From assembly GCA_010909165.1 (NCBI GenBank), contig MU008188.1, forward strand, positions 434,001 through 498,000: 64,000 nt of DNA, given 5' to 3'. The stretch is from Anthoceros angustus. Taxonomy: Eukaryota; Plantae; Anthocerotophyta. The notes under the pieces are model-generated. The model worked only from the letters and a program-made list of their open reading frames with translations. It did no database searches and was not told the origin of the DNA. A program made the position numbers and the translations under genes. This document shows positions 6,715 through 64,000 of the stretch, piece after piece. Numbering within the stretch: the stretch's first letter is position 1; each line of letters opens with the position of its first letter.

Positions 6715-16582
<9,868 letters not shown>

Positions 16583-36549: not shown

Positions 36550-39500
36550 TAATGATATACAATGTTGATATCATAGTTAGGGTTTAAGGGTTTAAGTTAT
36601 CCATATATTACCAAGATATGATAAGCTAGGGTTTACTAGATATGGTGTCGTTTCATTAGGGTTACGTCTCTAAGTGAATAGATACAACGTTTCATTAAAT
36701 TTAGTTTTAGTTGTCTTTTCATGCATAAGCAACTTACTTCTTTCTTGATCCAACAATGTAATTATTCTATAATGTTTAATTGATCTACATTAGTCCATAA
36801 AATCTTCATGGTATCGAGCTAACCTAGTGTAGGTTGCATTCAAATGAATGCACATTGAAATGTGCATCGGAAAATATACAATGCTTTCTTTGATTGTTTT
36901 CTTGTTTTATAAATAAGTTAAAATCAAGAAACATAAGATAGAAAAGAATGGGTGCATTCTTGTTTTATTTCTATTTTTATTTTGATGAATTCATATAGAT
37001 TACGCAAGATCGAGATAGTCTAGCGCACTCCAGTTGAGTTGCTACTTTAGCAATTCAATGGAGGCACACTAGAGCATGCACGGTGGGAGTATATGTAAAA
37101 ATCATATAAAGAAAACAGAAAATGCAGAATTCGCATTGTATATACAATCGTGGCACATAGCCATGGAAAATTACATCTACCATAATCCCGGTGAATCCTA
37201 GGAGGAACAATCAAATCCAAGGCGGGATCGGCCTTGAAATGCCGAGACAAACCACAGCACATCAATTACATGGGCGCATCCTAGTGGAGCAACTTGCCCA
37301 AATCAAGCACAAGGAGACACATTGCGAGGAGCCTTCAACACACTTCTCGAATTGCTGTTCCCAACAGAGCTTGACTTGACATTCACAATTGGACAGCGCG
37401 CGGTGCAACATCAGCCACTTGCTGAGAACATACACCAACGCGGCTTCCTCACAACAGGCGTTGTACAATCTGTAGGTGTAAACACAATTGTTCAGCGTCT
37501 TGAGGCTAACAATAGGAATGTTGAAAACAGATGTCGTCAGATTTCAGGTCATGTCGCTTGGCTAGCATTGATCTGCAGGATTTGAAAGAGCAGCTAACAC
37601 ACTTAGATTACAAGCTTGTCTTGTGAAACGAGTTGTTGGCCAACCCAAAGATTCGTGAGGCAAAGATGCAAGCACGTAAGTAAAACTAAGCATGAAAGGA
37701 AGTTTGATACACCTAACTCTTGCCCTTCATGCTCCACTTACGCATTCAATAAGTTTGAGATGAGAAACTCTAAGATAGTTTGCATAGCGGTTTGGGAACA
37801 AACCATAGCGCCTGTGAGCTGCTGGAGCAACCACAAAACCAACACGCATTGTAAGTAGAATGTATGGATGGTGAGAATAGTGGCTACAGTGCCCATGATA
37901 GTGTTCATGCTAGTGACCGGAAGAAGACACATTAGAAAGCTTCTTCAATCAGAGGACAAACTCTTAGGAGTTCAGCAACCCAAAATGGGTGACACATCCT
38001 CTACACATAATTTTGAAGCGTGAGTCCTTCAAGGAGAAGGACAGTTCATGAAATGACTTTGACATCGGCTTATAAGAATGGAGGCGTTCTCGAAATGAGA
38101 GGCCTCCTCAAACATGCTCTTGGAAAAGTAGTGAAACCAGACGAGGATCTTGGAGAGGAAGAATGGTTAGCTAAGGACAGTGAGCCAAATACCTCATCTG
38201 TGTGGCCGACAACCGAGATGTTGAGGCGAGAGCAGGTGAATACTTGGCCGAAATCATGAATCGCCTAAAGGAACTCTACGCAGCGAACATGGTAAGCGCA
38301 ATGTGACTCTAAGGAATTTTCGTAACCTAAGGATGAAGGACGGTGACTCGGTGGAGAAACACGTGAGTACCTTGGACCCTAGCCTCACGGCTTGAGTGCC
38401 TCCAAAGTTGCCATTGGAGATGATGAGATGGTGATGAGGCTCCTTCTTTCGCTTCAGTCATGGTCACATTTCGTGACTTCTCATCTGTTGCTCAAACACA
38501 AGCTACGTTGTTAGCTAAAAGCAAGGCATAGAGATGCCCGAAATGAGCTTCTCACAGTGTGAGTTCCATCTTTGCAAGAAGAAGCCAGGACCAACCATAA
38601 GCGAGGAAACACAGGCCGTACACCTCACAACAAGGACGAGGAGGGAAGAAGCCCTTCTCCAAAGGAGGTGGTGGAAACTCTTCGTGGAGGTAGCTCGCGG
38701 ATCCTCACCCGGAAGAAAACAAAGCCGTGAACACAATGTGCAAGCGCCATTGGGAAAAAGAGTGCATAAAAGCGGTGGAGTTCCTCGCAAGGAGGGAACC
38801 ACGAATCAAATGTTGTGGTAAAAAGGTTAATACCCCATCGCTCTTACGGTTGGGACTAGGAGTTTGCTAGTCCATTCGCTTCCCACTTGTCTTTCCTCCA
38901 AAGTGAATCAAACCAACATGAATGGTTCTTAGAATCGTGCTATGCACATATCGCTTTGATAGGAATGAATTTAAAACATACTGATCGATCAATATGTTTA
39001 CCTTGGGGACGATAGGTCTCTAGTCTCTCACGGTCGTGTACAGTTGAGTTAATAGTTCCTCGGAAACACACTCAAGTTAGAAGATGTCTACCATGTGCCC
39101 GAGATGACTAGAAACACGATCTCATTAGAAGATTGAATGCCGAAATAATCGGTCATGTCGCTTGGCTAGCATTGATCTGCAGGATTTGAAAGAGTGCTAA
39201 CACACTTAGATTACAAGCTTGTAATGTTCTTTGAAACGAGTTGTTGGCCAACCCGATTCGAGGTAAAGATGCAAGCACGTAAGTAAAACTAAGCATGAAA
39301 GGAAGTTTGATACACCTAACTCTTGCCCTTTATGCTCCACTTACGCATTCAATAAGTTTGAGATGAGAAACTCTAAGATAGCTGCACGCATAGCAGTTTG
39401 GGAACAAACCATAGCTGCACGCAGAGCTGCCTGGGAGCAACTACAAAACCAACACGCATTGTAAGTAGAATGTATGGATGGTGAGAATAGTGGCTACAGT

Positions 39501-42500
39501 GCCCATGATAGTGTTCATGCTAGTGTTCATGCTAAGAAGACACATTAGAAAGCTTCTTCAATACTGTAGAGGACAAACTCTTAGGAGTTCAGCAACCCAA
39601 AATGGGTGACACATCCTCTACACATAATTTTGGAAGCAGTGAGTCCTTCAAGGAGAAGGACAGGTTCAACGGAAATGACTTTGACATCTGGCTTATAAGA
39701 ATGGAGGGCGTTCTCGAAATGAGAGGCCTCCTCAAACATGCTCTTGGAAAAGTAGTGAAACCAGACGAGGGATCTTCGGGAGAGGAAGAATGGTTAGCTA
39801 AGGACAGCGGAGCCAAATACCTCATACGCAGTGGCCTGACAACTGAGATGTTGAGGCAGACAGCAGGGGTGAATACTTCGGCCGAAATCATGAATCGTCT
39901 AAAGGAACTCTACGCAGGCCAGAACATGGTAAGCGCAATGACAGCTCTAAGGAATTTTCAGAACCTAAGGATGAAGGACGGTGACTCAGTGGAGAAACAC
40001 GTGAGTACCTTCAGGACCCTAGCCTCACGGCTTCAGGGTGCCTCCAAAGTTGCCATTGGAGATGATGAGATGGTGATGAGGCTCCTTCTTTCGCTTCCAG
40101 AGTCATGGTCACATTTCGTGACTTCTCATACAGCTGCTCAAACACAAGCTACGTTGTTAGCTAAAAGCAAGGCATAGAGATGCCTGAAATGAGCTTCTCA
40201 CAGCTCGTGAGTTCCATGCTGCAAGAAGAAGCCAGCAGGACCAACCATAAGAAAGCAGGGAAACAACAGGCCCTGTATACCTCACAACAAGGACGAGGAG
40301 GGAAGAAGCCCTTCTCCAAAGGAGGTGGTGGAAACTCTTCCAGGGGAGGTAGCTCTGGCGGATCCTCACCCGGGAAGAAAACAAGCTGTGAACCCGCAAG
40401 CGTGCAAGCCGCCCGCCATTGGGAAAAAGAGTGCAAAAAAGGTGGAGTTCCTCGCAAGGAGGGAACCACGAATCAAATGTTGTGGTAAAAAGGTTAATAC
40501 CCCATCGCTCTTACGTTGGGACTAGGAGTTTGCTAGTCCATTTCCCACTTGTCTTTCCTCCAAAGTGAATCAAACCAAGGAATGGTTCTTAGAATCGTGC
40601 TATGCACATATTTGCTTTGATAGGAATGAATTTAAAACATACTGATCGGTTCGATCAATATGTTTACCTTGGGGACGATAGGTCTCTAGTCTCACTGGTC
40701 GTGGCACGTTGAGTTAATAGTTCCTCCGGAAACACACTCAAGTTAGAAGATGTCTACCATGTGCCCGAGATGACTAGAAACGATCTCGTTAGAAGATTGA
40801 ATGCCTCATGTCGTGTTCACAAGAATGCATTAATCATAGATGCATTTGACCCTAGAAAGGTACTTGCGCATGGGTCTTGGACCATGATCCGCTCCGTCTC
40901 CATTTGCACAGTAGCAGAGTCCCACGACACAAGACGTCCCCTTGCATCCGCACAACAAACGGCAAAGGCTCGGTTGTGGCATGCACGCCTAGGTCATCCT
41001 CACATGGCAAAGCTACAAAATTGGCATGAGTGACAGTATCAAGATGGACCTATTGGCCCCTTGACTCCTATACCCTTATGTGAGGCTTGTGTTTTGTCGA
41101 AGAAACACCAAGCGCCTTCAAGAACAAAGCACCTCACCGTGCTTCGATGTACTTGAGCTTGTACATCGATTTGTGTGGACCCTTATCTCAAGCGTCCATT
41201 GGTGGTGGGCGTTATTTCTTAACGTTCTGATGACAAAAGCGATTTGTCACCACCTACATCCCAAGAACAAGAGCGAATGTTTCTCCTATTTCAAGGAATA
41301 CATCAAGTTATTTGAACGTTGGACAGAAAGCGCTCAAGACACTAAGATCGAGACAATGGCGGGAATTCACCTCTAATGAATTCCAGCATTGTAAAGATGA
41401 AGGCATTGACGTCAACTCACGATGGTATACACTCCCCGGCGAATGGAGTGGCGAGGCGTTTGAATCTCACTGCAGGAGATGGTCTCCTCATTCGCATGAT
41501 GCTCAAGCGCCTTACCTTCGGCGAGGCTTTGATGACCTCAACCTTTCTTGAACAGTTACCCACCACACAGTCGAAGGCAAAACTCCTTATGAAGCTTTTA
41601 CGGCCATCCATCCAAAGACTTGAGGACGTTTGCCTTGCATATGCCTTCATACAGACGAGCGAACCAAGCTTTCAAGGCAGCTGCTCATGTTGGGATACGG
41701 AAGGGATAAAAGCATATAAACTATATGATGTTCCTTCTAACAAGGTCATTTATGCTCAGTGTTACCTTGATGAAACAAAGACTTGGGCTTGGTGGGAGCA
41801 CATGTTCATGCTCGATGGCCGAGGATAGTCTTGAGCTTTCTCATTATGATCGGCGGATCATGGTCGAGCTCTGATGAAAATGTTCTGCGGAGGGAAAATC
41901 GCGGTGTTTGAAGAAGAACCTCGAAATTCACATTAATCCTCCTTTCCGATCATAACCGCTGTGCAATATATTTCGAGCTTGCCGTCAAGAATCACGGGCG
42001 AAGTCGATGCGACGAATTTGTGAAAACACGAGCTGAACTTGTACTATCGACCTCACCTTGACTTTCAATTTAGACCCACTTACAAGACACCATCCGAGGA
42101 GGTAATGACAACTCCATGTCGCTCGACAATGAGCATATTACGATTTTATACTTTCTCCCTCGTGATCAGAACGCTCAAAGCCTTGGCATAAGACTATGGT
42201 TCTCTGGTGGGGTTAGAGCATATGCTCATGTGAGAAATACATGTCTTGTAAGTGGGATATGTCGGGGAGTCGGGTTCTGAGTAGGGTACTGGCAAGACTA
42301 GCTCGGATTTTCACAAGTTCGGCGTGGACTATTTCATTCGTTGAAACGCCAACCATTCCTGTGTGCAATATCGACTTCAAGGACTATGTTGCACGGCAAG
42401 CATTCTTGAATGAATGTGATCGACATAGGCAGTTATGTAGTCAAAGGAGGATTATGTAGGTAAACTTATCAAGATGCGGGTTGAAGCGATGCGCAATGGC

Positions 42501-46721: not shown

Positions 46722-47082
46722 TTCGTTCGGGGCCAAAGCGTCGGGATTGACCAACACTGTTTCTACGACAACCTTCTTCGCGTAAGCTGAATCCCTCAGG
46801 CGAGAGAGGGGGTCTGCATCCTTGATCGCGTCTTCCAGACGTTCTTCATCTGTCGAAATATGCACAGTTGGAATGGCTCCAACCTGGTCCGCCTGTACTG
46901 CCATTTTCTTCGCTTTCTTTTTCTTCCTCCCTGCCTCCGTGCTTCCACTATGTGGTTTCTTAGTGCCCTCCATGGAATCCAAAGTCGCAGCAGGACGCTT
47001 TCCCCTTGAGACCCGTTGGTGATCGATTCTTCCTGAGAGGAGGGCACCCGCCGCCTCCTTCCTTCCTCCCAATAACATGCTA
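46722..47082 (-). pseudogene. Downstream half of an interrupted ParB-MTase-family paralogue (target gene of the TIR element)
   Basis: RKKKKAKK..ISTDEERLEDAIKDADPLSRLRDSAYAKKVV matches cargo gene 58375-58530 (KRKKKSRK..DDEERLEDAIR..AYAKKVV). It is truncated just before the ParB domain. Confidence 0.7.
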
Positions 47083-50000
47083 ATCTTGGAAGGGGTTAAT
47101 ATACGCAGGGGTTTTCAACCAAATATCGTCGGAAGGGGTTTGGGATGGGTCGATCACGCTTTGGGCAACATCGGTCGAAGGCCTGAAAATAAGGGTCGAT
47201 ATGATGAAATTGACGTCCGAGCAAAGGTTCCATCACACAAAGGGTTAGCGAGTTCGCCATCGAATTTGGCATATACGACCCATGCTTGCTTACCATAAGT
47301 ACCCTAAGGACTAAAAGGAACGGGTTGTTGAGGCACGATCTAAATAAACAAGGTCTTTTGAAGACATTGCAATCTTCATCATCATTGGTAAAGAATGGTG
47401 CTTCTTTCCGAACCGTCCGTAACCCATAGTCTTTTGTTTTGGCAAGAAGCCTTGCCGGTGGCCGCGCCAGCTATCGGTTTCCACGATTTAGGATTTAGGC
47501 ATGCGTCGGATGGGTTATATAGCTTTGCCGAACAAAATGTACAATACGGTGGATGCGGAAAACGGTTTCCATGCTACTAAGGATGGTGAAAATGGCGGGC
47601 GCCGCCCACCGGCGCCGCCATTTGTCCTGCCGACTCGCAACCTACGGCCGTGGAAGTGACTCCAACTTCTTCAACTTCCAACCACCGAATGATAGCACCA
47701 GTGTGATTCCCTATCACTAACGCGAGCTCCCACTTTGAGCCTAACACTTGGCGGTCAAGACACTTCGGCGAGAGTAAACCCTCTTGTTCATCTGTCGAAA
47801 TATGCACAGCTTGGAATGGCTCCAACCGTCCGCCTGTCGCCATTTTCGCTTTTTTCTTCCTCCTCGCCTGCTTCCACTGTGTGGTTTCTTAGTGCCCTCC
47901 ATGGAATCCAAAGTCGCAGCAGGACGCTTTCCCCTTGAGCCAGCCGTCGGCTGGTCATCAGTTCTTCCTGCACTGAGGAGGGTGCCGGCCGGCCGGCGCC
48001 CTTCTCCTTCTTCCTCCTAACATGCTAATCTTGGAAGGGGGTTAATATACAGTAAGGGGGTTTTCAACCAAATATCGTCGGAAGGGGGTTTGGGATGGTC
48101 GACCGCTTTGGGCAACATCGTCCGTAAGAGCCTGAAAATAAGGGTCGATAAGGGATGAAATTGACGTCCGAGCAAAGGTTCCATCACACAAAGGGTTAGC
48201 GAGTTCGCCATCGAATTTGGCATATTCGACCCATGCTTGCTTACCATAAGTACCCTAAGGACTAAAAGGGAACGGGTTGAGGCACGCCTAAATAAACAAG
48301 GTCTTTTGAAGACATTGCAGGCAATCTTCATCATCATTGGTAAAGAATGGTGCTTCTTTCCGAACCGTCCGTAACCCATAGTCTTTTGTTTTGGCAAGAA
48401 GGCTGTGGCGGGCGCCCGAGCTATCCACACGATTTAGGATTTAGGCATGCGACGGATGGGTTATATCGGTCGAACAAAATGTACAATACGTGATGCGGAA
48501 AACGGTTTCCATGCTACTAAAGGATGGTGAAAATGGCGGCGCCGCCCACCGCCGCCATTTGTCCTGTCGCTCGAACCAACCACGGGGAAGTGACTCCAAC
48601 TTCTTCAACTTCCAACCGAATGATAGCACCAGGTGATTCCCTATCACTAACGCGAGCTCCCACTTTGAGCCTAACACTTGGCGGTCGACACACGAGGAGT
48701 AAACCCTCTTGTCACCGATGTCCACCGATGTTTGCCTCCACTTCATACATCTTTTCACTCATCTCCGAATTGACACCTTCCATGTCCAAGGGCCCGATGT
48801 CCTCACCGTCTTCGTCACTATCTTCGGTGCACTTTGGCTGGCTCGATGAAGCCCCGCAATTCATTCAACTTATCCTCGATCGCTTTTTGTCAATGGAATA
48901 GAGATGTTTACGGAATTCAAACCGAACCCATAATACAAGATGACGGTTTTATTGATGAAGACTTCTTGAACATTCTTGAAATTTGCCTTCCCACCCTTTT
49001 TCCTTCCAATCCCATTGTCTCGGAAGGGGTTTGGGATGGGTCGATCACGCTTTGGGCAACATCGGTCCGAGGCACGAAAATAAGGGTCGATAAGGGATGA
49101 AATTGACGTCCGGAGCAGTGTCTCCATCACACAAAGGGTTAGGGGCGTAGTTCGGCCATCAGAATTTGGCATATTCGACCCATGCTTGCTTACCATAAGT
49201 ACCCGGAAGGACTAAAAGGGAACGGGGTTGTTGAGGCACAGTCTAAATAAACAAGGTCTTTTGAAGACATTGCAGGCAATCTTCACAGTCATCATTGGTA
49301 AAGAATGGTGCTTCTTTCCGAACCGTCCGTCCAGAACCCATAGTCTTTTGTTTTGGCAAGGGGCCTCAGCGGTGGGCGCGCCACAGCTATCGGTTTCCAC
49401 GATTTAGGATTTAGGCATGCGTCGGATGGGTTATATACGGTTGCGAACAAAATGTACAATACAGGGGGATGCGGAAAAGCGGTTTCCATGCTACTAAGGA
49501 TGGTGAAAATGGCGGGCGCCGCCCACCGGCGCCGCCATTTGTCCTGTCGCCGACCGCAACCTACCGGAAGTGACTCCAACTTCTTCAACTTCCATCCGAA
49601 TGATAGCACCAGGTGATTCCCTATCACTAACGCGAGCTCCCACTTTGAGCCTAACACTTGGCACACTTGACAGTCGAGTAAACCCTCTTGTCTACCGATG
49701 TCCACCGCTGTTTGCCTCCACTTCATACATCTTTTCACTCATCTCCCGAATTGACACCTTCCATGTCCAAGGGCCCGATGTCCTCACCGTCTTCGTCACT
49801 GTCTTCTGGTGCACTTTGGCTGGCTGGCTCGATGAAGCCCCGCAATTCATTCAACTTATCCCTGATCGCTTTTTTGTCAATGGAATAGAGATGTTTACGG
49901 GAATTCAAACTGAACCCATAATACAGGATGACAGTTTTATTGATGAAGACTTCTTGAACATTCTTCGGGAAATTTGCCTTCCCACCCTTTTTCCTTCCAA

Positions 50001-51099
50001 TCCTCTCGGTGGAAGTGCGGAATCACATATTCTTCCACGACCGCCTTCATATGCATCCGTGCTCATCTGTACTCAGTGAACCAGAAATGAGGCTCTTCCA
50101 CATCCAACCTCACGATTAACTTTCCCAATCCGAAAGGCCGATTATGCGTATCGGTACAAGGTCTGCGATGAACATCCTTCCTTTATGTCTTTTACATCTC
50201 CATGCAACGTGCCATTTCTGCTGCCTTCCCCAACCGCCGGTAAGGCCCCAAGTACATATCCGTTGGGGAGTTCTCTTAGCAACGCCTCTAGGATAGCTTC
50301 ATCGGGAACTTGGAGTGGTTGCTGTTTCTTCCGATCCGAGAGAACCATTTCCACGGCACTTCTAGTGCGAGCCCAATGTTGTTCTCCACGATTATTGCGA
50401 TTTCTTCTTGGTCCACCTGAATGCTTCCCACCATCCATATCGTCCCACATATGGCCGCAGACCCGGCAGACCGCTCTCAAATGTGCCACTCCTTCCTCGG
50501 AGATAACCGCCGACGTCCCTTTCTTGTCTCGAGCCGGAGGGCCGACAGCGTATTGTTATGTCGTTGGAGGGACAAATTTCAAAAACTCCAACCCGGCTTC
50601 CAATACATCGATGTCGAATATTGCTTGCTCCTCATCACACCGCCACCACGGTTTGTCTTCTCCGTGATTTTAAACGTGCTGGAAAGATAAGTTGTTCAAT
50701 TTTCTCACCGATGTCCACCGATGTTTGCCTCCACTTCATACATCTTTTCACTCATCTCCGAATTGACACCTTCCATGTCCAAGGGCCCGATGTCCTCACC
50801 GCCTTCGCTACTATCTTGGTGCACTTTGGCTGGCTCGATGAAGCCCCGCAATTCATTCAACTTATCCCCGATCGCTTTTTGTCAATGGAATAGAGATGTT
50901 TACGGAATTCAAACCGAACCCATAATACAAGATGACGGTTTTATTGATGAAGACTTCTTGAACATTCTTGAAATTTGCCTTCCCACCCTTTTTCCTTCCA
51001 ATCCCGTCTCTGGAAGGGTCCGAATCACATATTCTTCCACGATTCGCCTTCATATGCATCTGTGCTCGATCTGTCAGGAACTGGAAAATGAGGCTCTTC

Positions 51100-54000
51100 C
51101 ACATCCAACCTCACGATTAACTTTCCCAATCCGAAAGGCCGATTATGCGTATCGGTACAAGGTACGCGATGAACATCCTTCCTTTATGTCTTTTACATCT
51201 CCATGCAACGTGCCATTTCCTGCTGCCTTCCCCAACTGCAAGGCCCCAAGTACATATCCGTTGGGGAGTTCTCTTAGCAACGCCTCTAGGATAGCTTCAT
51301 CGGGAACTTGGAGTGGTTGCTGTTTCTTCCGATCGCAGAGAACCATTTCCACGGCACTTCTAGTGCGAGCCCAATGTTGTTCTCCACGATTATTGCGATT
51401 TCTTCTTGGTCCACCGAATGCTTCCCACCATCCATATCCTCACATATGGCGCAGCCCGGACCGCTCTCAAATGTGCCACTCCTTCCTGGAGATAACCGCC
51501 GACGTCCCTTTCTTGTCTCGAGCCGAGGGCCGCAGTACCGGTGTCGTTGGAGGGGACAAATTTCAAAAACTCCAACCCGGCTTCGGTTTCCCAATACATC
51601 GATGTCGAATATTGCTTGCTCCTAATTACTGTCACCAGCCCACGGTCTGGTTTGTCTTCTCTGGTGATTTTAAACTGGTGCTGGAAAGATAAGTTGTTCA
51701 ATTTTCTCACCGCCGATGAATATGCCTGGCGACCATCGCCTTGTCTAATCGGCCATACATATGACCGGAAGTCCGGGACCTCCTGCAAAACTTTGATCTC
51801 CGGTGTAGGCGTGTATGCATGAACCAGTATGTCGGCCAACGCGGGAAGAGTGTGTGCCTCCTTGTGCTTCAAGCTTTTGGAAAAGCAAGAGAACATCTGG
51901 TCGATTTGGTCGTGAGTGTGCCCAACAAGGAGGAACCCAACCTTCACCTTCTGAAAAGTTCCCATATCAACTAGCATGTTCAAATACGCAAACAACAGCT
52001 GGTTCTTGTTTTCCCGGCAAGTGTTGTCAAGCTGCAAATAGAGCACTTTGGGTAGCACTCCTTTATAATTAAGAATAACATCTTGAATAATCACGATTGT
52101 CGATTCGCATCGTTCCTCAAATTGGCATAGTGCAAAAACACTCTTGCGTCGTATAATTGTGGATCATGCAACCCACTACGTGCAGATACACATCCTCATC
52201 AAGATTCTTTGGCCAACGCGAAAGTGTGGAATCTCGTCTTCTTGGTCCATTCCGTCTATAGCGAGGAGCATGTACTTATCCGGTTCCTGTAACTCTTTTC
52301 ACGGTGTTTTGCCATTTTTCCCGCTCCTCCTGCAAAACTTTGATCTCCGGTGTAGGCGTGTATGCATGAACCAAGATGTCGCCAACGCGGAAGAGTGTGT
52401 GCCTCCTTGTGCTTCAAGCTTTTGGAAAAGCAAGAGAACATTTGGTCGATTTGGTCGTGAGTGTGCCCAACAAGGAGGAACCCAACCTTCACCTTGAAAA
52501 GTTCCCATATCAACTAGCATGTTCAAACACGCAAACAACAGCTGGTTCTTGTTTTCCGGCAAGTGTTGTCAAGCTGCAAATAGAGCACTTTGGGTAGCAC
52601 TCCTTTATAATTAAGAATAACATCTTGAATAATCACGATTGTCGATTCGCATCGTTCCTCAAATTGGCATAGTGCAAAAACACTCTCGCGTGACGTATAA
52701 TTGTGGATCATGCAACCCACTACGTGCAGATACACATCCTCATCAAGATTCTTTGGCCAACGCAAAGTGTGGAATCTCGTCTTCTTGGTCCATTCCGTCT
52801 ATAGCGAGGAGCATGTACTTATCCGGTTCCTGTAACTCTTTTCACGGTGTTTTGCCATTTTTCCCGCTCCTCCTGCAAAACTTTGATCTCCGGTGTAGGC
52901 GTGTATGCATGAACCAAGATGTCGCCAACGCGGAAGAGTGTGTGCCTCCTTGTGCTTCAAGCTTTTGGAAAAGCAAGAGAACATTTGGTCGATTTGGTCG
53001 TGAGTGTGCCCAACAAGGAGGAACCCAACCTTCACCGAAAGTTCCCATATCAACTAGCATGTTCAAATCGCAAACAACAGCTGGTTCTTGTTTTCCCGAA
53101 GTGTTGTCAAGCTGCAAATAGAGCACTTTGGGTAGCACTCCTTTATAATTAAGAATAACATCTTGAATAATCACGATTGTCGATTAATCGTTCCTCAAAT
53201 TGGCATAGTGCAAAAACACTCTTCTGCGTCGTATAATTGTGGATCATGCAACCCACTACGTGCAGATACAGCGTCCTCATCAAGATTCTTTGTGTGTGTG
53301 GAATCTCGTCTTCTTGGTCCATTCCGTCTATAGCGAGGAGCATGTACTTATCCGGTTCCACCTGTAACTCTTTTCACGGTGTTTTGCCATTTTTCCCGCT
53401 CCTCCTGCGGTGTGCCTCTAACGCTGCCCGACATTTTTTTACGCACCAAACACGTTCCAAGTGTCACATCCTTCCAAGTTTTCACGCTCCCAATTTCACA
53501 CATACAAACACGCTTCTTCCACACCACAAGCGAAGATGAATCCATGAAACCCATTGCATACAACAAACCGATGTCGTGGACTATCACCTCTTCACACATA
53601 CATTTACCATCTTCCCCAATCTAAAATCTACAAAACGTCCACCTTCTAGGTCATATATTATGGTTGGCGAGTTTGAAGGTGGATGCGCAGGGCCCCGGGG
53701 CCCGGCCCTACAAACTCGACCAATCAAACCTACAACCTGGGGCCATCATGAACAAGGACTGCGAGTTTCAAACATGGTACTCGAGGCAACTCAGAACGGT
53801 CATCCGAGGTGGCGCGGCGCCCACCCTCGACACACTCGAACCATCCGCATACCACCGCTCATTCGGCGAACTATGGGATGAACTCGAAAACTCCTCCCAC
53901 CAGATGGGTTGTACTAGTGGTAGAGTGATATCTACCTTGATCAACCTTCCGAGTTGTATTCGAATGGTGGTCTTTAACCAAGACATATTGAGCGGTCGAG

Positions 54001-55700
54001 AACTGTTGGATTTGGGAATCTTCACTCGGTGAAGTTAGATTTCCATAACTTCAAAACCACGCGTCACAAACCGCACGAGCTTTGACACGCCGTTTGTACA
54101 ATGACCATATCTCCGCTTTGTATAGGTGTCGCGTTATACACCGCACGTCGAAGTCTTTCACCATGAGCGAAAAGCATTATCCATCCACGCTAGAGCACCA
54201 AGTGCATGACGGGACTTATGAATTGGGTTGGTTCGAACACTATCCCACGGGGCATTCCTCATGACCCTCCCTTTCAGTTCCTCGTATCTGTTGTGCCCCA
54301 TACAATATACTCTTCTGAAGGCCTTCACGCAACAGCGCAGAGGAACCGATCCCATAACATGCGTAAAAACTCTTTCTTTGTTAGTTTGACTCGGGTCCCG
54401 ATGTACGAGGCTTTGAAGAAATGTCTCCTGCTCTTGCCTGCACATTGTGAGGAACCTATATCGTTGCTCCTGAAGGCCTTGCTTGGTCAACCTCTGCATG
54501 CACATTTGGTTGCAACACGGTTTAAGAAAGTCTGCCGTCACCTTCTCCAGTTCACATTTTTGCAAAGACACCCCGCTGCCGTCACCGCGCTTGTCCGCTT
54601 TGTTGTCATCAATGTCTCACTTAAAGGCTTGGGATGGAATGTTCCGGATGCACCACCGGAGGAGGGTGAACAAAGTCATCATCCCCATCCTCGCCACGGA
54701 TCATTTGCTTGTGGAAGAACTCACCCGCGGTCATCCTCGCACATCGCTCCTTGGCGGAACAAACCACGACGGGATCGCACCCCATCTCCCTTCCTTCCTG
54801 GTGTCTTCGCTGGATGCGGATTCCCATCAATGGCGATATAAGTTCAAGTTCACGGGGTCATGGGCACCCCACGCGAATGCCGGAGAGGACGCTTGTCGGC
54901 GACGAGCATTACCGCAATACCACCGCTCATTCGGCGAACTATGGGATGAACGAAAACTCCTCCCACCAGATGGGTTGTACTAGTGGTAGAGTGATATCTA
55001 CCTTGATCAACCTTCCGAGTTGTATTCGAATGGTGGTCTTTAACCAAGACATATTGAGCGGTCGAGAACTGTTGGATTTGGGAATCTTCACTCTGAAGTT
55101 AGATTTCCATAACTTCAAAACCACGCAGACGCCAAACCGCACGAGCTTTGACACGCCGTTTGTACAATGACCATATCTCCGCTTTGTATAGGTGTCGCGT
55201 TATACACCGCACGTCGAAGTCTTCACCATGAGCGAAAAGCATTATCCATCCACGCTAGAGCACCAAGTGCATGGGACTTATGAATTGGGTTGGTTCGAAC
55301 ACTATCCCACGGGCATTCCTCATGACCCTCCCTTTCGCCTTCCTCGATCATAGCCCCATACAATATACTCTCAAGGCCTTCACGCAAGCAGAGGAACCGA
55401 TCCCATAACATGCGTAAAAACTCTTTCTTTGTTAGTTTGACTCGGGTCCCGATGTACGAGGCTTTGAAGAAATGTCTCTTGCTCTTGCCTCGCATTGTGA
55501 GGAACCTATATCGTTGCTCAAGGCCTTGCTTGGTCAACCTCTGCATGCACATTTGGTTGCAACACGGTTTAAGAAAGTCCGTCACCTTCTCCATTTCACA
55601 TTTTTGCAAAGACACCCCGCTGCCGTCACCGCGCTTGTCCATGACTTTGTTGTCATCAATGTCTCACTTAAAGGCTTGGGATGGAATGTTCCAGATGCAC
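51100..55700 (-). CDS. DDD/E transposase (QLDN-ENKN / GHTH-DxID family, Sola1-like by inference), frameshifted and partly triplicated
   Basis: IDGMDQ (52242-52256), LYLQLDNTCRENKNQLL (about 52000-52045) and VGHTHDQIDQMFS (about 51888-51926). An N-terminal Cys cluster (PCCNQMCMQ; CVKAF) lies at about 54300-54520 and 55380-55560. The core is repeated at about 51770-52330, 52330-52870 and 52870-53400. Confidence 0.8.
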
Positions 55701-56962
55701 CACCGGAGGAGGGTGAACAAAGTCATCATCCCCATCCTCACCACGGATCATTTGCTTGTGGAAGAACTCCCCTGCGGTCATCCTCGCACATCGCTCCTTG
55801 GCGGAACAAACCACGACGGGATTCGCACCCCATCTCCCTTCCTTCGGTGTCTTCGCTGGATGCGGATTCCCATCAATGGCGATATAAGTTCAAGTTCACG
55901 GGGTCATGGGCACCCCACGCGAATGCCGGAGAGGACGCTTGTCGATGGCGGCATTACACCGCAATACCACTTCGTGCGGTGTGCATGAGATGGAATCGCC
56001 ACGGATGGGGTGGACTATTCGCCACAACATTGTCTTCACCGCAAACAAGCGTTTCTTGTTGAAGGCAAACTAACCTTCCGGAGTTCGGACTCGCTGTTGC
56101 TCATGATCGGGCGCGGGGCCCCATTCAAGATCTGACCATCCTTGGCTCCTCACAAGAGAGTCACCTACCATCCGGAAATCAAAGACCCCTCTTCCACACT
56201 GCTCCTGCGACAACATCAATGTCGTCATTACATGGAGTGAGACGGAGAGACCGATGCAAACCCAACACTTGTTCTCAAGTACATGTTCCCCTTGATCGCA
56301 CAAGCAGTGAGGAATGAACTTTGTGGACGAAAAACTCGACCTCTTCGACAACCGATGTGGGTGGCGCAACATTGTCGCCGGCCCGAGGACTCCGCACCTC
56401 TAACCTCTGGAAATATGGTCCTCACTCTTCACAGCGTGGTATGCCATGACATAGGCGATCGTGGATCAAGGTAAGGTGGAAATGCCATTATGAGCAAATA
56501 AACCGAAAGATCTTCACCGGTAGAACTTGGCGAGGCACACCGCCTCTTCATTGTTTTCTCGGCATTGGGGTTCACATATACGGCTTTTGACTTAGGGTCC
56601 TATAAATGGTTTTCCGTAAGCATTTCCTTAATTGACATTTATGGTTAGGGTTGCCAAGACATGTGTATGACGTGACCGAACGGGCGTCATACTTTCGATT
56701 CAGTGGAGAGTAACCACGAGAGAGCAAGTTCTTCCAGCCAGACGAACGGTGGCGGCCGCCTCGAGATCAACTCTCGGCGAAGGACTTTTCTGCCTCCCAA
56801 AGACGCGACTTCTCCACGCTGCGATCCTCCGCCATTTCCTCGCGATTCACATAGTCTGGTATGGCCCTCCCTTCCTGCTCGCAAATTTCCTTCAAGTTGT
56901 GGACGATTCCTTCTTTGAATTGCGCTGGCTTCCTATGGCAGATTGTATCTAATCTCTTGAGG

Positions 56963-59900
56963 ATGGCAAGCGGAAGACGAAGTAGGAAGGAACGTGGAGA
57001 ACCAGAGGTAACATCCCGACGATGCCCAAAACCAAGAAATCCCCAGAAGAAGAAGAAGGATGCGGCGGAATTTCGGGTGTGGATGTCGGAGAAGGCACGC
57101 CTACCTCCGGTGGAGGGCGCAGACATACCCAGCCATCAAGCACCAGCCGGAGGTAATTTGTCAATTGGGCATGGGAAATCGGGCACTAACATCCGGGAAG
57201 GCCAAGACAACGAAGGAGAAGGCTGCAGGAGGAGACCGAGGAAGAGACCCCACAGCAATCGCGGCGCCTATTCCAACGCCATTTAACTATGAGGATCTTG
57301 CCATACGTCGGTTGGGGAGCAAGGTGGAGGCCACTTTCTCGAGAAGGACGGATGTTGACACAGGATGAGGAGCCTTGAGGAGAACAATTTTGGACTCCTC
57401 TATTGAAACCGTGGTCGAGGGTTCAAGGGGCCTTGCCAAACCAGAGCAAGGGCTGGGTTCTATGGGCGATGGATATGGATGGACGAGAGCTGTGTTTGAT
57501 CTGCACAACAAAGCCTTTGGTATTTGATCGGATAAGCGAAGATGAAACCATGTACAAGGCTTATGAGGTCAGCCTACATGGCTTCCAAAGCAAGAAGTGC
57601 AGTCCTTCAAACCTGGTGGAGGATTTCAGAAATGCTATGCGTCAGCCAACTGTAAAAATTTGGAATAAGGTTTTCAAGGCAGTTGATGCAAATTGTTGTA
57701 TGTTGGTTTCCATGACTTGTGCCTTCTGTCTTGCCTTTCCTCAATCCTTTTTCTGTTTTGCAGGATGCTCAGCAAGCTAGAGCACTAATTACGACCATAT
57801 GCGGGAAGATTACCGAATCCGTCATCCAGCATAGGAGGGAAATGTCACAACGACGAGTCAGAGCCCAGCTTCGACAGAATGTGCATGACGGGCTCACCGA
57901 AGCCGAGCGCAGTGCAGCTAGTGAGCTCGGCCCATCTGATGAGGAGGATGGGTGTATACCCGACGTCCTTGGCCACTCCGACGATGACGACTTTCAGGAG
58001 GCAGAGGATGGAAGGGATGCTCCGTTGCTGGACATTCCTTTTCCTGGCTCCTCCATGGAGGTACCCAGTGGTCGGTATCTGCCAGAGGGTGAGGCGCCGC
58101 CGGCCGCGCCTCCCCGCAGTAGAGGTCTGGAGACTGGTTACCCGCACCCAACCGGGTTCCCAAGGCACCGAAGGGTTGGCGCCGGCCGCCACTGACGCCT
58201 TGCAATTGTTGCGGAAGAGACGGTGGCGGTGGGCGGGCGAGGGTTCTATTGAGGCACCTCCGTGTCCGCCGATCCGAGAGTATGGAGACAGGGACTCGAG
58301 TGGGAGAGCAAGGCATGGTGGGCACGCCGCAACAGGGCATACCGCCGCTCATAGCGAGGCTCCACCGGGGAAGAGAAAGAAGAAATCCAGGAAGGAAACC
58401 GTGAGTGAAGCCCACCAGAGAATATAGCGATCATCCATGTGCGGATGATGAGGAAAGACTTGAAGATGCTATCCGGAATCGGACCCATTGACAATAATCG
58501 TGGACTCGCCTATGCCAAGAAAGTTGTTCCGGAGATCGGTAAAGCTTGAGAATTTGAAGCCGATCTTTTATTACACCGGATGCCCAAATCGGGAGGTGGA
58601 CGAGGCATGGTCAAACTACCTAGCCCGAGTTATTTCAAGGAAGGATTGAAGAAGGGTTCGCCATTCATGCATGATTGACCCCGGGAGTGCAACGATATTA
58701 GCAAGTTGGACCGAAATTCGGCCAAGAAATATATTATGGGTGTACTTGGGGGGAACCACACATATGCTGCTATGAAGCACTTGGCAGATATTGCTCCGGG
58801 GAAGTCCCGTTTTCAATATGTTGAAGCGCATGTATACTGTGGGCTTACGGTGCCTGAGATGAGAGTTCTTGCAACCGACCATAACACAATGTCTGACAAG
58901 CGGAAGAAAATGTCTTTTATTGAACAGGTAAGATATTTACGAGATGAGCTTCTTATTGCGCGTCGGGATGGAGTGCAGATGACCATGTCATGGAAGTTCA
59001 ATCTTTATAAGGTTCTTGGATTAATTGAAGATGATGAAGGCCGCGAAGATGACGTGTACAAGCAGAACAAAGTGGACAACAGGACACACATACTGTGCAT
59101 CGCGAAGCAGGAGGGCAAGGTATGGGATAATATTGATAAGATCTTTTCAAAGTGGGAAGCGAGTTACGGGCGGAAGAAGCACATACTGCCGCACCAAGAA
59201 AGGGAAGGGAAAAGGAAAGTCACAGATGATCCCAAACACGTGGAAACAGTATTTCAAGCCGAAGACATGCTCATGAAACCCCGGAAATCATTCCGTGGTA
59301 TACCAGGTGAATGTGGGCGCAGATTCTTGTCACGGCAAGGAAGGTAACTTGTGCATCCTCGATCTCAAAGGAATGGAGGACGAAATTACTTCAAGAAAGA
59401 AACCGCATGTTATTCAAGTGGCCATGGCTAAACATCCGAGTGCTCATCTTCGAGGAAGTGAGGAAGGAATATCCTACACTCAGCAGACGACATGATTGCT
59501 CGGTTTCAAACGGCTTTTCTTTGGGAAGGTGAGATCCGTCACCAGCATAATGAGTCGCTTTGGTTTTCCTTTTTTGCGAGGCGCCGGCTGGCCCGCCACG
59601 CTGTCTCGAGATGATAGTGGGAGGCGCCGGCCGCCGCGCCTCCCCCACTATCTTTGACGCGCGCAGTTCGCGTCACGGCGCGCCGCCGGCGCCCATGTAT
59701 GGCTTCGCCCTCGCCTGAGCGGCGCGCCGCCGCGCCGCCGCATGTGGAGGCTCGAAACCAAATTTGTCGATGGAGGGTGTGAAGGGCGCCGGTCGGCCGG
59801 CGTCTTTCACACCCTCCTTCGTCATCGTCCCTGCTTGTTTGAATACAATAGGAATGTGGTGTCCCTGCTCTAACGTTTTTTCTTTCCCTGGCGTTCAGCA

Positions 59901-61180
59901 AATAAAGGATGTGGAGAATTTGCAAAAGCTGCCGGAGGATTTCAAGAACTTCATATTTGAGATTAACAACTGGAAGAGTCTTGAGGATGAGCAGCGTGCA
60001 ATCGCTGACAAGGATTTGAAAGACGGACTGCACTTGTTCACTGTTCCAGGGTCTGAGAAAGAGTGTTACTATCAAGTGGAAAAAAGAAACATTATGGAGA
60101 TGCGGGGATTCCTTCGGACGCGGGCTTATACCCTTCTGGTTATGGATGTCCCAAGAGGCTTTGACATTGGTCCTATGGATAGTCGGTTGGATGCAGGCAT
60201 GATGAACACAGTTTTCCAAAGCTTCCAGGAGAAGACGACGGCGGAAGAATTCAGGCTCATTGTCATGCACGGAGTGGAAGAAGCTCACCTTGTGAGAGAG
60301 TGCATGCGTGGATTATGTGGCAAGGGTGGAATGGTGTCCTTCGTTTGGGACAAAACAAACATGAGTAATGACAGGGGTGGATTTGAGATGGAGTACATAG
60401 CTTGCTTGGTGTGTGAAGGAAGGCTCGAAGGCAAGGCGGCTATGACGCCCAATATTACGTGAGGGACTTTTAACAATGGACGATCCGTGATTGCACATGA
60501 TAATGGTGAAGAAGCGGTGTACATGTCTCAAGACAAAATGGTGGTGTGCCTACCAAAGACCTCTCGGGTTGATGATGAAATTCATCAAAACATTCTCAAA
60601 GAAGGAGATTGGATTCGGATGGTTGCGCAGAAGTGGGACAACAACACTGGCAGCATTGCTGGACGCAATTCTATTGCAATAGAGGCTGACCTCCGCTGTG
60701 CTGGTTATATCCCACAACGCATACATGGTTTCGAGGTTTTGCCAGATCGAAAGAGGAGCTCACATTCGAGGCCCAGAGAGCAGACAATGGCTAAAGAAGT
60801 TTGTATTAGCGAAAAAATTGTTCGAAAGCTCGTGGTTCCACTTAGTGCAAGAAGGATGAAAACGCAAAGGGGACTTGCTAGAGGAAGGACAACAAACCTC
60901 GGATACTGTGCCACCGGGAGTGGTGGCGACAAGGGCAGGCGACAACGCAGAAGATGATGCCCGGCAGAGACGGCAGCCTTGATGTAGTAGAATTGAACGC
61001 ATGCAACATGGCAGCTTGTTTTAGATTGAAGCCACCCAAGCGCAGATGAGTCTCGATCACCCGCTGAGGATCTTTGTAGAGGAAAGACTATATTCGAGGG
61101 ACGGAAGGGGTTTTGAAAGCGTGATATCGTGGATTTTCTTTCATTACTTGTGTCAAAGCATAGCCGGCAAGGATACTGGG
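56963..61180 (+). CDS. Cargo gene: N-terminal unknown domain + acidic linker + ParB/Srx-like domain + beta-class DNA amino-methyltransferase-like domain (frameshifted as assembled)
   Basis: Start MASGRRS, shared with the paralogue at 62684. GT-AG intron 57670-57763 and an acceptor at 59898. VLGGNHTYAAM (GGNH 58748-58759) and LATDHN. Motif IV-like LLVMDVPRG (60145-60159), FVWDK, YQRP. Motif I EGDWI(L)DGCA(G)SGTTTLAAL-GRNSIAIEAD (60601-60690) appears after repairing 1-nt deletions. The 3' end is approximate. Confidence 0.72.
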
Positions 61181-61355
61181 CAGCGCCAGCCGCCAAGAAG
61201 CCCCTTGTTTTATGAATTGTGAAATATCAATGTTTTTTCCCTTCGTATTTAGCATGGTGTCAGAACGAGGATTCGAATGATTTTGCATTTCCAACGGTCT
61301 TTTTGTGAAGGGGTTTCACAGCGGAAGGGGTTTGTATATTAACCCCTTCCAAGAT

Positions 61356-62684
61356 TATCATGTTTCTGCTCAACCCCTCGCCTCGACCCCATCGCCTCTT
61401 TCCTCGGGATCCAACAACAACACCTCTTCCACTTTGTGGTCGGTGGAAGGGCTCGCGTACTGAAGCTTACCACCGGCCGCCCAACCCCCATCTCCCTGTT
61501 GAAATTGGATAAACCAGTTGGGATCCGGAGTGGGCAAGTCCGGACCTGCTCCACCCTTCATCACACCCGGGGCGCCGGCCGGCCGGCGCCCAAGACCCTG
61601 TTCTGGACTGTAGTCAATGGTTGGGACAACCATTGACGCACCATGCATTGCCAAGCTGGGCAGCATATCTGCATCCCTATCTTTGTCTTGTCCCCCAGAC
61701 ACTTCTTCATCCGAATGGCCGAGCACGTCTAGAATGGGGCCATCTTCCTCATCTGATGGGCCAAGTTCACTCTGGGATCTGGGGCTCCGGACTGTCTGCC
61801 TCTTCAATAATTCTTTGATGGGCTGCTCTCACCCTTCTCATTGATAGCTCCCTCCTGTGATCCACAACTGCCTCGGTAATCTTCCCACAGATAGCCCTGA
61901 TGAGGGCCATTCCGACTAACGGTGGCTGGAAAAGAGAAGAAGCGAAAGTCACGTCAGTCATCGAAGTCTCATGGTTTTGAAAAAGACAGTCATTTGAGAC
62001 AACACAAGAGGCCGCATGCATCACTCGCGAACTCTTGACTAGTGAGCGAGGTGCACATTTCTTGGCATGGAACCCTGAGGTCGAGAACATAAGACTTGTA
62101 TAGATCGGGTCACGGATCATTGCGTTGAACTCATATGGCCCGGTGGTGCAAAAACGTAAACTCGGGCTCCCCTCATTCATATCCATTGTTGCCCAGTTAA
62201 CCAAATTGCTTTTGATTGGGCAAAGCCCCTATACCCCATTATCCGAGTTTCAGGGCGCCCATGCCGCTTTCCGATGCGGATCCTGGACGAGCATCCAATC
62301 CTTCTGCAAAATGAGCGAGGTCAATCGGCCACCCGGTCTGGATGTGCACGCCTCGAAGGTGATTAATTGGGGGTGGCACCGGATGCTTTGAACTTTTTGG
62401 TGCCTTCCCCACCCCTTGCCCGCCAGCAGCCTTTGTTTGGCTAGTCTTCCCTGAAGACATGCTCCCAGATTTTGCCTCCCCAGCCGAGGCTTTATGCCCT
62501 CCCACACCTCCTGGATGTGCAGAGTGCGCTCCCAGATTGCCTTGCGCCCCTACCTCGCTGGTGGCGCCTCCGTAACTTCTTCTCCGGTGTTCGCATGGCC
62601 GCCTTGTTTCCGATTTCTCGCCACGCGGTGGCGCGGGGATCGCCACTACCGCCAGTCCTTCTTGCTCCGCCTCCCGCTCGCCAT
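61356..62684 (-). pseudogene. Upstream half of the interrupted ParB-MTase-family paralogue
   Basis: MASGRRSKK start. GALPNQ..WATMDM, GFHAKKCAPRSL, ALIRAICGKITE and ELGPSDEEDG..DVLGHSDEE are all collinear with the cargo gene at 56963-58200. Confidence 0.75.
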
Positions 62685-62698
62685 CTCTTCGCGGATGC

Positions 62699-64000
62699 CG
62701 ACAACGCAGAAGATGATGAAGCGAAGGCCACAGCGGTGGCAACCGATGTAGTAGAATTGAACGCATGCGCAACATGGCGATTGTTTTAGATTGAAGCCAC
62801 CCAAGCGCGATGAGTCTCGGATCGGTCACTTTGAGGATCTTTGTAGAGGAAAGACTATATTCGAGGGACGGAAGAGGGTTTTGAAAGCGTGATATCGATT
62901 TTCTTTCATTACTTGTGTCAAAGCATAGCAAGGATACTCTGGCGGCGCCCGGCCAGCCGCGGATAAAACCTCTGTTTTATGAATTGTGAAATATCAATGT
63001 TTTTTCCCTTTCGTATTTAGCATGGTCTTTGTTAACGGAGGATTCGCGTATTTTGCATTTCGAGCGGTGTCTTTTTGTGAAGGGGTTTGTTGTGCGGAAG
63101 GGGTTTGTATATTAACCCCTTCCAAGATTATCATGTTTCTGCTCAACCCCTGTCGCATCGCCTCTTTCCTCGGGATCCAACAACAACACCTCTTCCCTTG
63201 GTCGTGGAAGGGCTCTGGCAGTGGCTCTACCGGGCCGTGACCGGCCTAACCCCCATCTCCTGTTGAAATTGGATAAACCGATTGGGATCCGGAGTGCAAG
63301 GCAGAGTGGGACTGCTCCACCCTTCATCACACACGGCGCCGTGGCCCAAGACCAATTGTAGTCAATGGTTGGGACAACCATTGGCGCACCATCATTATTT
63401 GGCGCATCCCTATCTTTGTCTTGTCCCCGGACACTTCTTCATCGAATGGCCGACCACGTCTAGAATGGGGCCATCTTCCTCATCGATGGGCCAAGTTCAC
63501 TCCGGGATCCGGGGCTCCGGGATCGCCTCTTCAATAATTCTTTGATGGGCTGCTCTCACCCTTCTCATTGATAGCTCCCTCCACACAGTCCAGTCGGTAA
63601 TCTTCCCACAGATAGCCCTGATGAGGGCCATTCCGACTAACGGTGGCTGGAAAAGAGAAGAAGCGAAAGTCACGTCAGTCATCGAAGTCTCATGGTTTTG
63701 AAAAAGACAGTCATTTGAGACAACTTACAGTATGCTGTCGCATGCACTCGCGGAACTCTTCGACTAGTGAGCGAAGTGCACATTTCTTGGCATGGAACCC
63801 TCGGAGGCTGAGAACATAAGACTTGTATAGATCAGGGTCCTGGATCATTGCGTTGAACTCATATGGCCTGGTGGTGCAAAACAACGTAAACTCGGGCTCC
63901 CCCTCATTCATCCATGTTATTTACGGATTACCTTGCTCTTTGATTGGGCAAAGCCCCTATACCCCATTATCGAGTTTCGGCAAGGCGTCCATCTGCTTTG
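62699..64000. repeat. Re-copy of about 60938-62240 including a second right TIR (63107-63128)
   Basis: Starts gacaacgcagaagatgatg as at 60939 and stays collinear to the window end with scattered indels. Confidence 0.85.

What the first reader, a model, noticed from the sequence alone, without database searches (positions are those of the whole stretch)
60100..60720. Hidden SAM-binding motif split across frames, and an atypical catalytic motif DVPR
ORFs 60487-60957 and 60491-60682 each hold half of a canonical signature. Joining them at three apparent 1-nt deletions gives CAYQRPLGLMMKFIKTFSKEGDWI(L)DGCA(G)SGTTTLAAL-GRNSIAIEAD, matching the beta-class consensus HPxQKP..GDxVLDPFxGSGTTxxAAxxxGRxxIGIE. 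Upstream motif IV reads D-V-P-R-G instead of D/S/N-P-P-Y. AGA is not one base from a Tyr codon, so the change is probably real. Inference: either an altered-specificity enzyme or a catalytically dead SAM/DNA-binding fold retained by the element.
Basis: partly seen in the sequence, partly recalled or inferred. Interest (0 to 1): 0.78.

Follow-up and report, generated by a model that had tools for sequence, protein, structure and literature searches.

The report
Plant transposon methylase with arginine motif
This is a broken, error-laden copy of a bacterial-type DNA-methylase-fold gene inside a plant jumping gene, and the arginine in place of its catalytic tyrosine is shared by several distant relatives with unbroken frames, which likely bind SAM and their own element's DNA rather than methylate it (untested).

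Summary
The split SAM-binding motifs are real: frameshift-aware score 111, against a best null of 31.5. They need five breaks plus a stop, not three. D-V-P-R-G is real and is a family trait: 5 of 19 related protein clusters read D-L-P-R-G and 14 read D/N-I-P-Y. Three R-type proteins are open through the SAM motifs, and one modelled R-type protein has the beta-class amino-methyltransferase fold (Z 21.5 to CcrM). The gene is a spliced cargo gene, divergent from a DUF7869 transposase-like gene, in a TIR element with a 4-bp target duplication and repeated GC palindromes. This matches the published Ectocarpus Sola1-1_Ec32 design, and this scan noted it before on other DNA. Short-read contigs lack two frameshifts and the stop but keep at least one break, so this copy is likely decayed as well as mis-assembled. 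The reads do not cover motif IV. New here: a conserved non-aromatic motif IV. I favour a SAM-binding, non-methylating DNA binder (about 0.45) over an active enzyme with altered chemistry (about 0.33).

The parts
60145..60159 (+). Motif IV, D-V-P-R-G (Arg codon 60154-60156); R-type subfamily signature
   Evidence: aligns with D-L-P-R-G in 5 homolog clusters, D/N-I-P-Y in 14 and D-L-P-Y/F in 4 phage enzymes
59899..60459 (+). Open part of exon 2: linker, motif III (Asn at 60088-60090 instead of Asp), motif IV, and the strand after it with invariant Arg (60253-60255) and His (60268-60270)
60460..60462 (+). In-frame TGA; not present in the one listed short-read contig that covers it
60532..60723 (+). 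SAM-binding half (motifs X, I, II) broken by five frame changes near 60547, 60600, 60617, 60631, 60660
   Evidence: contigs carry an extra base behind 60597 and 60615 and keep the break near 60547
59529..59898 (+). Phase-0 GT..AG intron, at the same place as in an R-type relative (P0011 and P0001 unspliced, P0012 joined); holds four of the palindromes
58447..59528 (+). Broken upstream exon region of the same gene; ORF 58679-59344 has a GGNHT motif that I recall as ParB-like (not confirmed by profile or fold); 58991-59435 matches the N-terminal part of P0012
   Evidence: ParB tests inconclusive
51393..52163 (-). DUF7869 transposase-like ORF, divergent from the cargo gene; further broken and tandemly duplicated pieces run to about 55970
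   Evidence: Pfam PF25273 E 3.1e-41
47076..47104 (+). Left end: CATG target duplication (47076-47079) and 24-bp terminal inverted repeat (47081-47104); near-duplicate at 48021
61334..61362 (-). Right end: terminal inverted repeat (61334-61357) and CATG (61359-61362); near-duplicate at 63132
   Evidence: the two flanks joined at one CATG read in one open frame
59579..59804 (.). Four GGCGCCGG-N4-CCGGCGCC-like palindromes in the intron (59579, 59622, 59677, 59785); the last lies inside a 60-nt hairpin
58092..58199 (.). Two more palindrome-like sites (58092, 58178)
47596..47616 (.). Palindrome-like site near the left end (near-duplicates at 48537 and 49513)
61363..62270 (-). Outer, related element's gene into which this element inserted; it continues at 47075-46760 and carries a perfect copy of the same palindrome at 61571-61590

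Best explanation
The stretch is a likely decayed and partly mis-assembled copy of the spliced cargo gene of a land-plant TIR DNA transposon, and its D-x-P-R motif is a conserved subfamily trait whose intact members are predicted to bind SAM and grip their own element's DNA with little or no amino-methyl transfer. Shown: the motif, the breaks, the intron, the element ends, the palindromes, the R-type homologs and the fold of one of them. Inferred: an N-terminal ParB-like domain docks on the GGCGCCGG-N4-CCGGCGCC palindromes. The methylase fold then loads SAM, and the Arg holds a phosphate, sugar or flipped base in the pocket where Tyr normally stacks the target base. The protein would thus act as a self-recognising, probably anti-silencing or transposition-assisting, accessory factor rather than as a 4mC/6mA writer.
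For: R-type motif in 5 of 19 homolog clusters at 38-57% identity to each other and 29-32% to the window. The R and Y groups separate at 100/99. The Asp, second Pro and Gly of motif IV and motifs X, I, II are kept in P0002, P0005 and P0007 (Pfam PF01555 above cut-off). Fold Z 21.5, rmsd 3.1, 217 aligned to CcrM. The aromatic residue of [DNSH]PP[YFW] stacks the target base (PMC4738411; PMC10406627), and its loss inactivates HP0593 (Y107G) and weakens M.TaqI (PMC3036652). Transposon-borne methylase domains judged inactive have a precedent in DIRS1 (PMC4738411). Divergent layout as in Sola1-1_Ec32 (PMC12477816). Palindromes: 11 hits in the element against 0-1 in 20 simulations. Decay and error: 11-53 indels per kb between near-duplicates in the window; contigs lack some breaks and keep others.
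Against: Arg is invariant in all 6 R-type rows and the SAM motifs have not drifted, which is what an active site under selection looks like. Only Gly and Ala substitutions of the Tyr are described in what I read; no Arg mutant. Motif IV D-x-x-R exists in active m5U methyltransferases, where the Arg contacts the target nucleotide (PMC1904294). The ParB label was not confirmed. Binding to the palindromes is untested, the palindrome pattern was chosen after seeing the data, and 3 of its 11 hits are near-duplicate copies. The genomic context of the R-type homologs could not be seen, so it is unknown whether they sit in transposons. Short reads do not cover the window's motif IV.
Confidence: 0.45

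Rival explanations
1. Intact R-type proteins are active methyltransferases in which Arg replaces Tyr as the base-holding residue (cation-pi stacking or sugar and phosphate contact). They would write 4mC (the palindrome arms contain no adenine) or another methyl mark on their own element.
For: Invariant D-x-P-R-G and intact motifs X, I, II, III in relatives at 38-57% identity. An invariant His at the end of the next strand in 19 of 19 plant rows that cover it, absent from 4 phage enzymes. D-x-x-R motif IV in RumA and TrmA (PMC1904294). One R-type gene appears spliced (P0012 against P0011 and P0001). Three differences between the window and a diverged short-read copy over 30 nt are all synonymous (my reading).
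Against: The defining aromatic residue is absent. In TrmA the Arg plays a minor role (R302A keeps 87% of m5U54) and the chemistry needs a motif VI cysteine, where this family has His. One of 5 R-type clusters (P0001/P0012) ends before the SAM half. No active-site geometry could be measured on the model.
Confidence: 0.33
2. This very copy is intact in the real genome, and all the breaks are long-read errors.
For: Indels outnumber or match substitutions between near-duplicates. Contigs carry the missing base at two of the breaks, and one lacks the stop.
Against: A contig at depth 97 matches 60516-60580 exactly, with at least 31 nt on each side of the break near 60547. The contig without the stop has stops in all three frames. 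The contig that carries both extra bases still leaves the frame near 60631, though only about 15 nt from its end. Motif III is Asn here. Caveat: the contigs may come from other copies or another strain.
Confidence: 0.12
3. The Arg is a one-off change in a dead pseudogene and has no functional meaning.
For: The window copy is broken and has a long branch (1.15-1.91).
Against: Five other clusters carry Arg at the same column, and the window groups with them (95/94 inside a 100/99 split).
Confidence: 0.05

Closest known systems
ParB-like + N4C/N6A methyltransferase accessory gene of Ectocarpus Sola1-1_Ec32 (PMC12477816; passages, and supplement rows; sequence not seen)
   Same: [quoted passage not shown]
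   Different: Land plant host; 24-bp TIR and other termini; the paper passages give no motif IV, so whether Arg occurs there is unknown; ParB fold not confirmed here.
Beta-class amino-methyltransferases: CcrM, M.BceJIV, M.MboIIA, M.RsrI, rotifer N4CMT, and phage D-L-P-Y/F enzymes (Pfam PF01555)
   Same: Fold, motif order IV before X-I-II, QKP and DxxxGxG motifs; the nearest phage hits share D-L-P-x-G and DxCxGSG.
   Different: Arg instead of Tyr/Phe/Trp in motif IV; invariant Arg and His on the next strand; N-terminal extension; spliceosomal intron.
Plavaka accessory genes PAG2 and PAG3 of red algae (bioRxiv 10.1101/2025.02.11.637652; passages; supplements not seen)
   Same: Transposon cargo with a PF01555 methylase and a ParB-like domain beside arrays of inverted repeats.
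   Different: There the methylase is fused to SET and the ParB-like domain to a 2OG oxygenase, in separate genes of an EnSpm element.
Marchantia MpDN4MT1a/b (bioRxiv 10.1101/2021.02.12.428880; passages)
   Same: Beta-class amino-methyltransferase of prokaryotic type in a seed-free plant.
   Different: Host genes with canonical SPPY and shown 4mC activity; no sequence comparison was made here.
m5U RNA methyltransferases RumA/TrmA (PMC1904294; passages)
   Same: Motif IV D-x-x-R with the Arg contacting the target nucleotide.
   Different: Unpermuted fold, C5 chemistry through a motif VI cysteine that this family lacks; a resemblance only.

Membership tests
Beta-class N4C/N6A DNA methyltransferase | Permuted Rossmann fold, motif IV before motifs X-I-II | tested here: met
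   Model of R-type P0005: Z 21.5, rmsd 3.1, 217 aligned to CcrM; window collinear
Beta-class N4C/N6A DNA methyltransferase | SAM-binding motifs X, I, II, III | tested here: met
   Kept in P0002, P0005, P0007. In the window they are split by breaks and motif III is Asn
Beta-class N4C/N6A DNA methyltransferase | Catalytic motif [DNSH]-P-P-[YFW] with aromatic last residue | tested here: not met
   D-V-P-R in the window, D-L-P-R in 5 clusters; definition from PMC4738411
Beta-class N4C/N6A DNA methyltransferase | Methyl transfer to an exocyclic amine | not testable with these tools
   Needs an assay
ParB-methyltransferase transposon accessory gene (Sola1-1_Ec32 type) | Inside a TIR element, opposite strand to the transposase | tested here: met
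   TIRs, CATG duplication and open empty-site frame; DUF7869 on the minus strand
ParB-methyltransferase transposon accessory gene (Sola1-1_Ec32 type) | N-terminal ParB-like domain | tested here: inconclusive
   GGNHT motif read by recall; no Pfam, PHROG or NCBIfam ParB hit; single-sequence model pLDDT 40.9 too poor to decide
Sola1 transposons | 4-bp target duplication | tested here: met
   CATG on both sides; one insertion only
Sola1 transposons | AWWT target preference | tested here: not met
   CATG here; AWWT is called a Sola1 hallmark in PMC3845634, though Sola1-1_Ec32 is listed with another bias
Sola1 transposons | Transposase homologous to reference Sola1 transposases | not tested
   Only DUF7869 shown; the Sola reading is recalled and taken from earlier notes
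m5U methyltransferases (TrmA/RumA) | Catalytic cysteine in motif VI | tested here: not met
   His at the end of that strand in 19 of 19 plant rows that cover it

The most novel reading that the evidence does not exclude
Land-plant transposons carry an active beta-class DNA methyltransferase subfamily that holds the flipped base with an arginine (D-x-P-R plus an invariant neighbouring histidine) instead of the universal aromatic residue, and use it to write a private mark, possibly 4mC, on their own adenine-free palindromes.
Probability: 0.3. Interest if true: 0.75.

Novelty: new variant of a known kind. Interest (0 to 1): 0.42.

Why it matters
Transposons that bind or mark their own DNA are barely characterised, and the algal ParB-methylase cargo genes are untested predictions. 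This work shows a natural pair in one plant family, Tyr-type and Arg-type, with otherwise matching cores. That gives a clean test of whether the cargo must methylate or only bind. If the Arg type is active, the rule that amino-methyltransferases need an aromatic motif IV residue has an exception. If it is not, the cargo is a conserved SAM-binding pseudo-enzyme. The window copy itself is a poor reagent; the unbroken relatives are the ones to test.

Tried and rejected
No whole genome is held, so no copy census or dN/dS. Window fragments alone hit no methylase family in Pfam or PHROGs. Word-based protein searches for longer relatives found none (weak evidence). The Atlas search of the window fragment gave no hit at 0.9. 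Locus searches found no relative in metagenome contigs, genome contigs (102) or viral contigs (103); two alignment queries had no conserved stretch to search with (36, 71). So no genomic context for any homolog, and no prokaryotic or phage R-type relative was seen, which is weak evidence. No RNA holder listed; run X2 laid nothing. Run X1 has no cover over 59410-60318, so motif IV was not checked in reads. P0003 (a repetitive mollusc protein) was dropped as spurious; P0017 lacks motif IV in its called ORF and was left out of the counts and trees. The single-sequence model of 58679-59344 was low-confidence; Foldseek gave nothing at E<=0.001 and the wide search gave best Z 4.7. An intron as the explanation for the shifted stretch near 60374-60460 was rejected: the candidates are about 40-60 nt and would delete a strand that all long homologs keep. 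Direction of change is unresolved: with motif IV masked and 4 phage outgroups (5 Y-type rows left out), the R rows are not one clade in the best tree (0 of 200 bootstrap trees), yet a single R clade is not rejected (p-AU 0.214). No complex prediction was run. Literature: no paper held DPPR + methyltransferase + motif IV; papers held a DLPR/DVPR/DIPR term with the others, unrelated by title; searches listed nothing on land-plant ParB-methylase cargo by title or abstract start. Iyer, Abhiman and Aravind 2011 was seen only as a reference entry and may describe such variants.

Full report
Observation. The window reads D-V-P-R-G at 60145-60159 in the frame that runs from 59899 to a TGA at 60460. 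The SAM-binding half is spread over all three frames. A frameshift-aware alignment to a profile of six homolog C-termini, which did not include the window, scores 111.3 over 60532-60723. The best of 424 other tiles scores 31.5 and the best of 200 shuffles 26.8.

Host and sequence quality. The window looks like a land plant: a spliced glutamate-synthase-like gene at 8-17 kb (recognised by eye, not tested) and a copia gag (PF14223, E 8.8e-26). Earlier notes suggest a hornwort; I did not test that. The right third holds tandem and inverted near-duplicates. Seven such pairs differ by 11-53 gap events per kb, mostly of 1-2 nt. That pattern suggests uncorrected long-read error, and it would by itself give several breaks in 600 nt.

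Are the breaks real? One public DNA run, X1, holds 0.13 of the sampled words. On 60040-60725, 37 contigs were laid and 8 listed. Contigs carry an extra base behind 60597 (depth 74 of 377) and behind 60615 (95 of 195), and these open the frame through FSKEGDWI and DGCA. The one listed contig over 60460 lacks the stop. Against an intact copy: that contig has stops in all three frames; a 65-nt contig at depth 97 is identical over 60516-60580 and so keeps the break near 60547; and the contig with both extra bases still leaves the frame near 60631, about 15 nt from its end. Loose ends show diverged copies. One reads V-V-C-P before YQRP, and one differs from the window at three positions in 30 nt, all synonymous by my reading. 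So the element has several copies, some breaks are likely errors, and at least one is likely real. The contigs may come from other copies or another strain, and X1 may be the window's own source. There is no cover over motif IV.

Is the Arg real? A full HMMER scan with 59902-60459 returned 10 proteins, of which one repetitive mollusc protein was dropped. A profile search added 11 more, of which one lacks motif IV in its called ORF. Of the 19 clusters with motif IV visible, 5 read D-L-P-R-G and 14 read D/N-I-P-Y. R-type cores are 38-57% identical to each other and 29-32% to the window. P0002, P0005 and P0007 run unbroken through QKP, DxCSGSG and the motif II Asp and pass the PF01555 cut-off. 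P0001/P0012 ends before the SAM half, and P0004 is a fragment. All R-type homologs are unnamed; the only named relatives are three Tyr-type proteins of the liverwort Calypogeia fissa. In an unrooted tree the R and Y groups split at 100/99, with the window inside the R group at 95/94 (motif column included). With the motif masked and four phage D-L-P-Y/F enzymes as outgroup, the Y group is one clade, the R rows are not, and one R clade is not rejected (p-AU 0.214). The order of events is therefore open.

Fold. The AlphaFold2 model of R-type P0005 (mean pLDDT 68.6, core mostly above 85) matches beta-class amino-methyltransferases: Foldseek E 3.2e-12 to M.MboIIA and Z 21.5, rmsd 3.1, 217 aligned to CcrM. 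The Atlas places its features with viral PF01555 clusters at 0.97. Phage hits carry D-L-P-Y/F. All 19 plant rows that cover it have an Arg at the start and a His at the end of the strand after motif IV; the four phage enzymes lack them.

Context. A phase-0 intron at 59529-59898 sits where an R-type relative has one: P0011 and P0001 are its unspliced halves on one contig, and P0012 is the joined form on another. The exon upstream matches the N-terminal part of P0012. Further upstream lies a GGNHT motif that I recall as ParB-like; profiles and a poor model did not confirm it. A DUF7869 ORF lies on the minus strand (E 3.1e-41). A 24-bp inverted repeat at 47081 and 61357 is flanked by CATG on both sides. 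Joining the flanks at one CATG gives a continuous frame of a related gene, so this element inserted into a relative. It spans 47080-61358, of which roughly 5 kb are near-duplicates that are probably artefacts. A GGCGCCGG-N4-CCGGCGCC pattern with up to 3 errors gives 11 hits in the element against 0-1 in 20 simulations. Ten more hits lie outside: five in a GC-rich low-complexity tract, four scattered, and one perfect copy in the outer element. The pattern was chosen after seeing the data, and three of the 11 are duplicates.

Mechanism. In amino-methyltransferases the last, aromatic residue of [DNSH]PP[YFW] stacks the target base (PMC4738411, passages; PMC10406627, passages). Y107G inactivates HP0593, and Ala or Gly weakens M.TaqI (PMC3036652, passages). 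The default reading of D-x-P-R is therefore loss of amino-methyl transfer, with the fold kept to bind SAM and DNA. DIRS1 methylase domains are a precedent for retained inactive cargo. Against this, Arg is invariant rather than drifting, the SAM motifs are intact, and RumA and TrmA use a D-x-x-R motif IV in which the Arg touches the target nucleotide, though with a minor role and different chemistry (PMC1904294, passages). I put the non-methylating binder at about 0.45 and the active altered enzyme at about 0.33. Binding to the palindromes and any effect on silencing or transposition are inferred by analogy and untested.

Comparison and novelty. The design is published for Ectocarpus Sola1-1_Ec32 (PMC12477816, passages and supplement rows), and related cargo is published for red algal Plavaka elements (bioRxiv 10.1101/2025.02.11.637652, passages; its supplements were not seen). 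This scan has noted plant versions on other DNA several times, including two in this genome; those notes gave me the Ectocarpus lead and the idea of looking for palindromes. Sola1 membership is not established: the duplication is 4 bp but not AWWT (PMC3845634, passages). I found no description of a D-x-P-R subfamily in searches, but the library lacks most subscription papers, including the 2011 Iyer review. Verdict: a new variant of a known kind, interest 0.42. The value lies in the conserved Arg subfamily, not in this broken copy.

Noticed in passing
window 8000-17000 (+): Spliced glutamate-synthase (NADH-GOGAT)-like gene with long clean ORFs, in contrast to the indel-rich repeats; identity recalled from the translation, not tested.
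   Followed up: no
window 37547-39141 and 39151-40805: Fold-back near-duplicate (91% identity, 51 gap openings) beside a copia gag ORF at 39536-40174; likely an assembly or read artefact.
   Followed up: partly
window 46842-55970 and 60940-63999: Seven tandem near-duplicate pairs with 11-53 indels per kb; they duplicate both element ends and the transposase-like gene and are probably artefacts.
   Followed up: yes
window 61363-62270 and 46760-47075 (-): A related outer element's gene, split by this insertion, shares the same palindrome (perfect copy at 61571); no second methylase copy was found in the window.
   Followed up: partly
window 60253-60270; P0005 R129 and H134: Arg and His flanking the strand after motif IV are invariant in 19 of 19 plant rows of both motif types and absent from four phage enzymes; the His is likely near the catalytic Asp.
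   Followed up: partly
P0001/P0011/P0012: An R-type gene that appears spliced but ends before the SAM-binding half in both forms.
   Followed up: no
window 34800-35600: GC-rich low-complexity, partly self-complementary tract.
   Followed up: no
window 59765-59824: 60-nt hairpin in the intron centred on one palindrome.
   Followed up: no
window 14701-16212 and 19330-20592: About 77% identical second copy of part of the glutamate-synthase-like gene.
   Followed up: no
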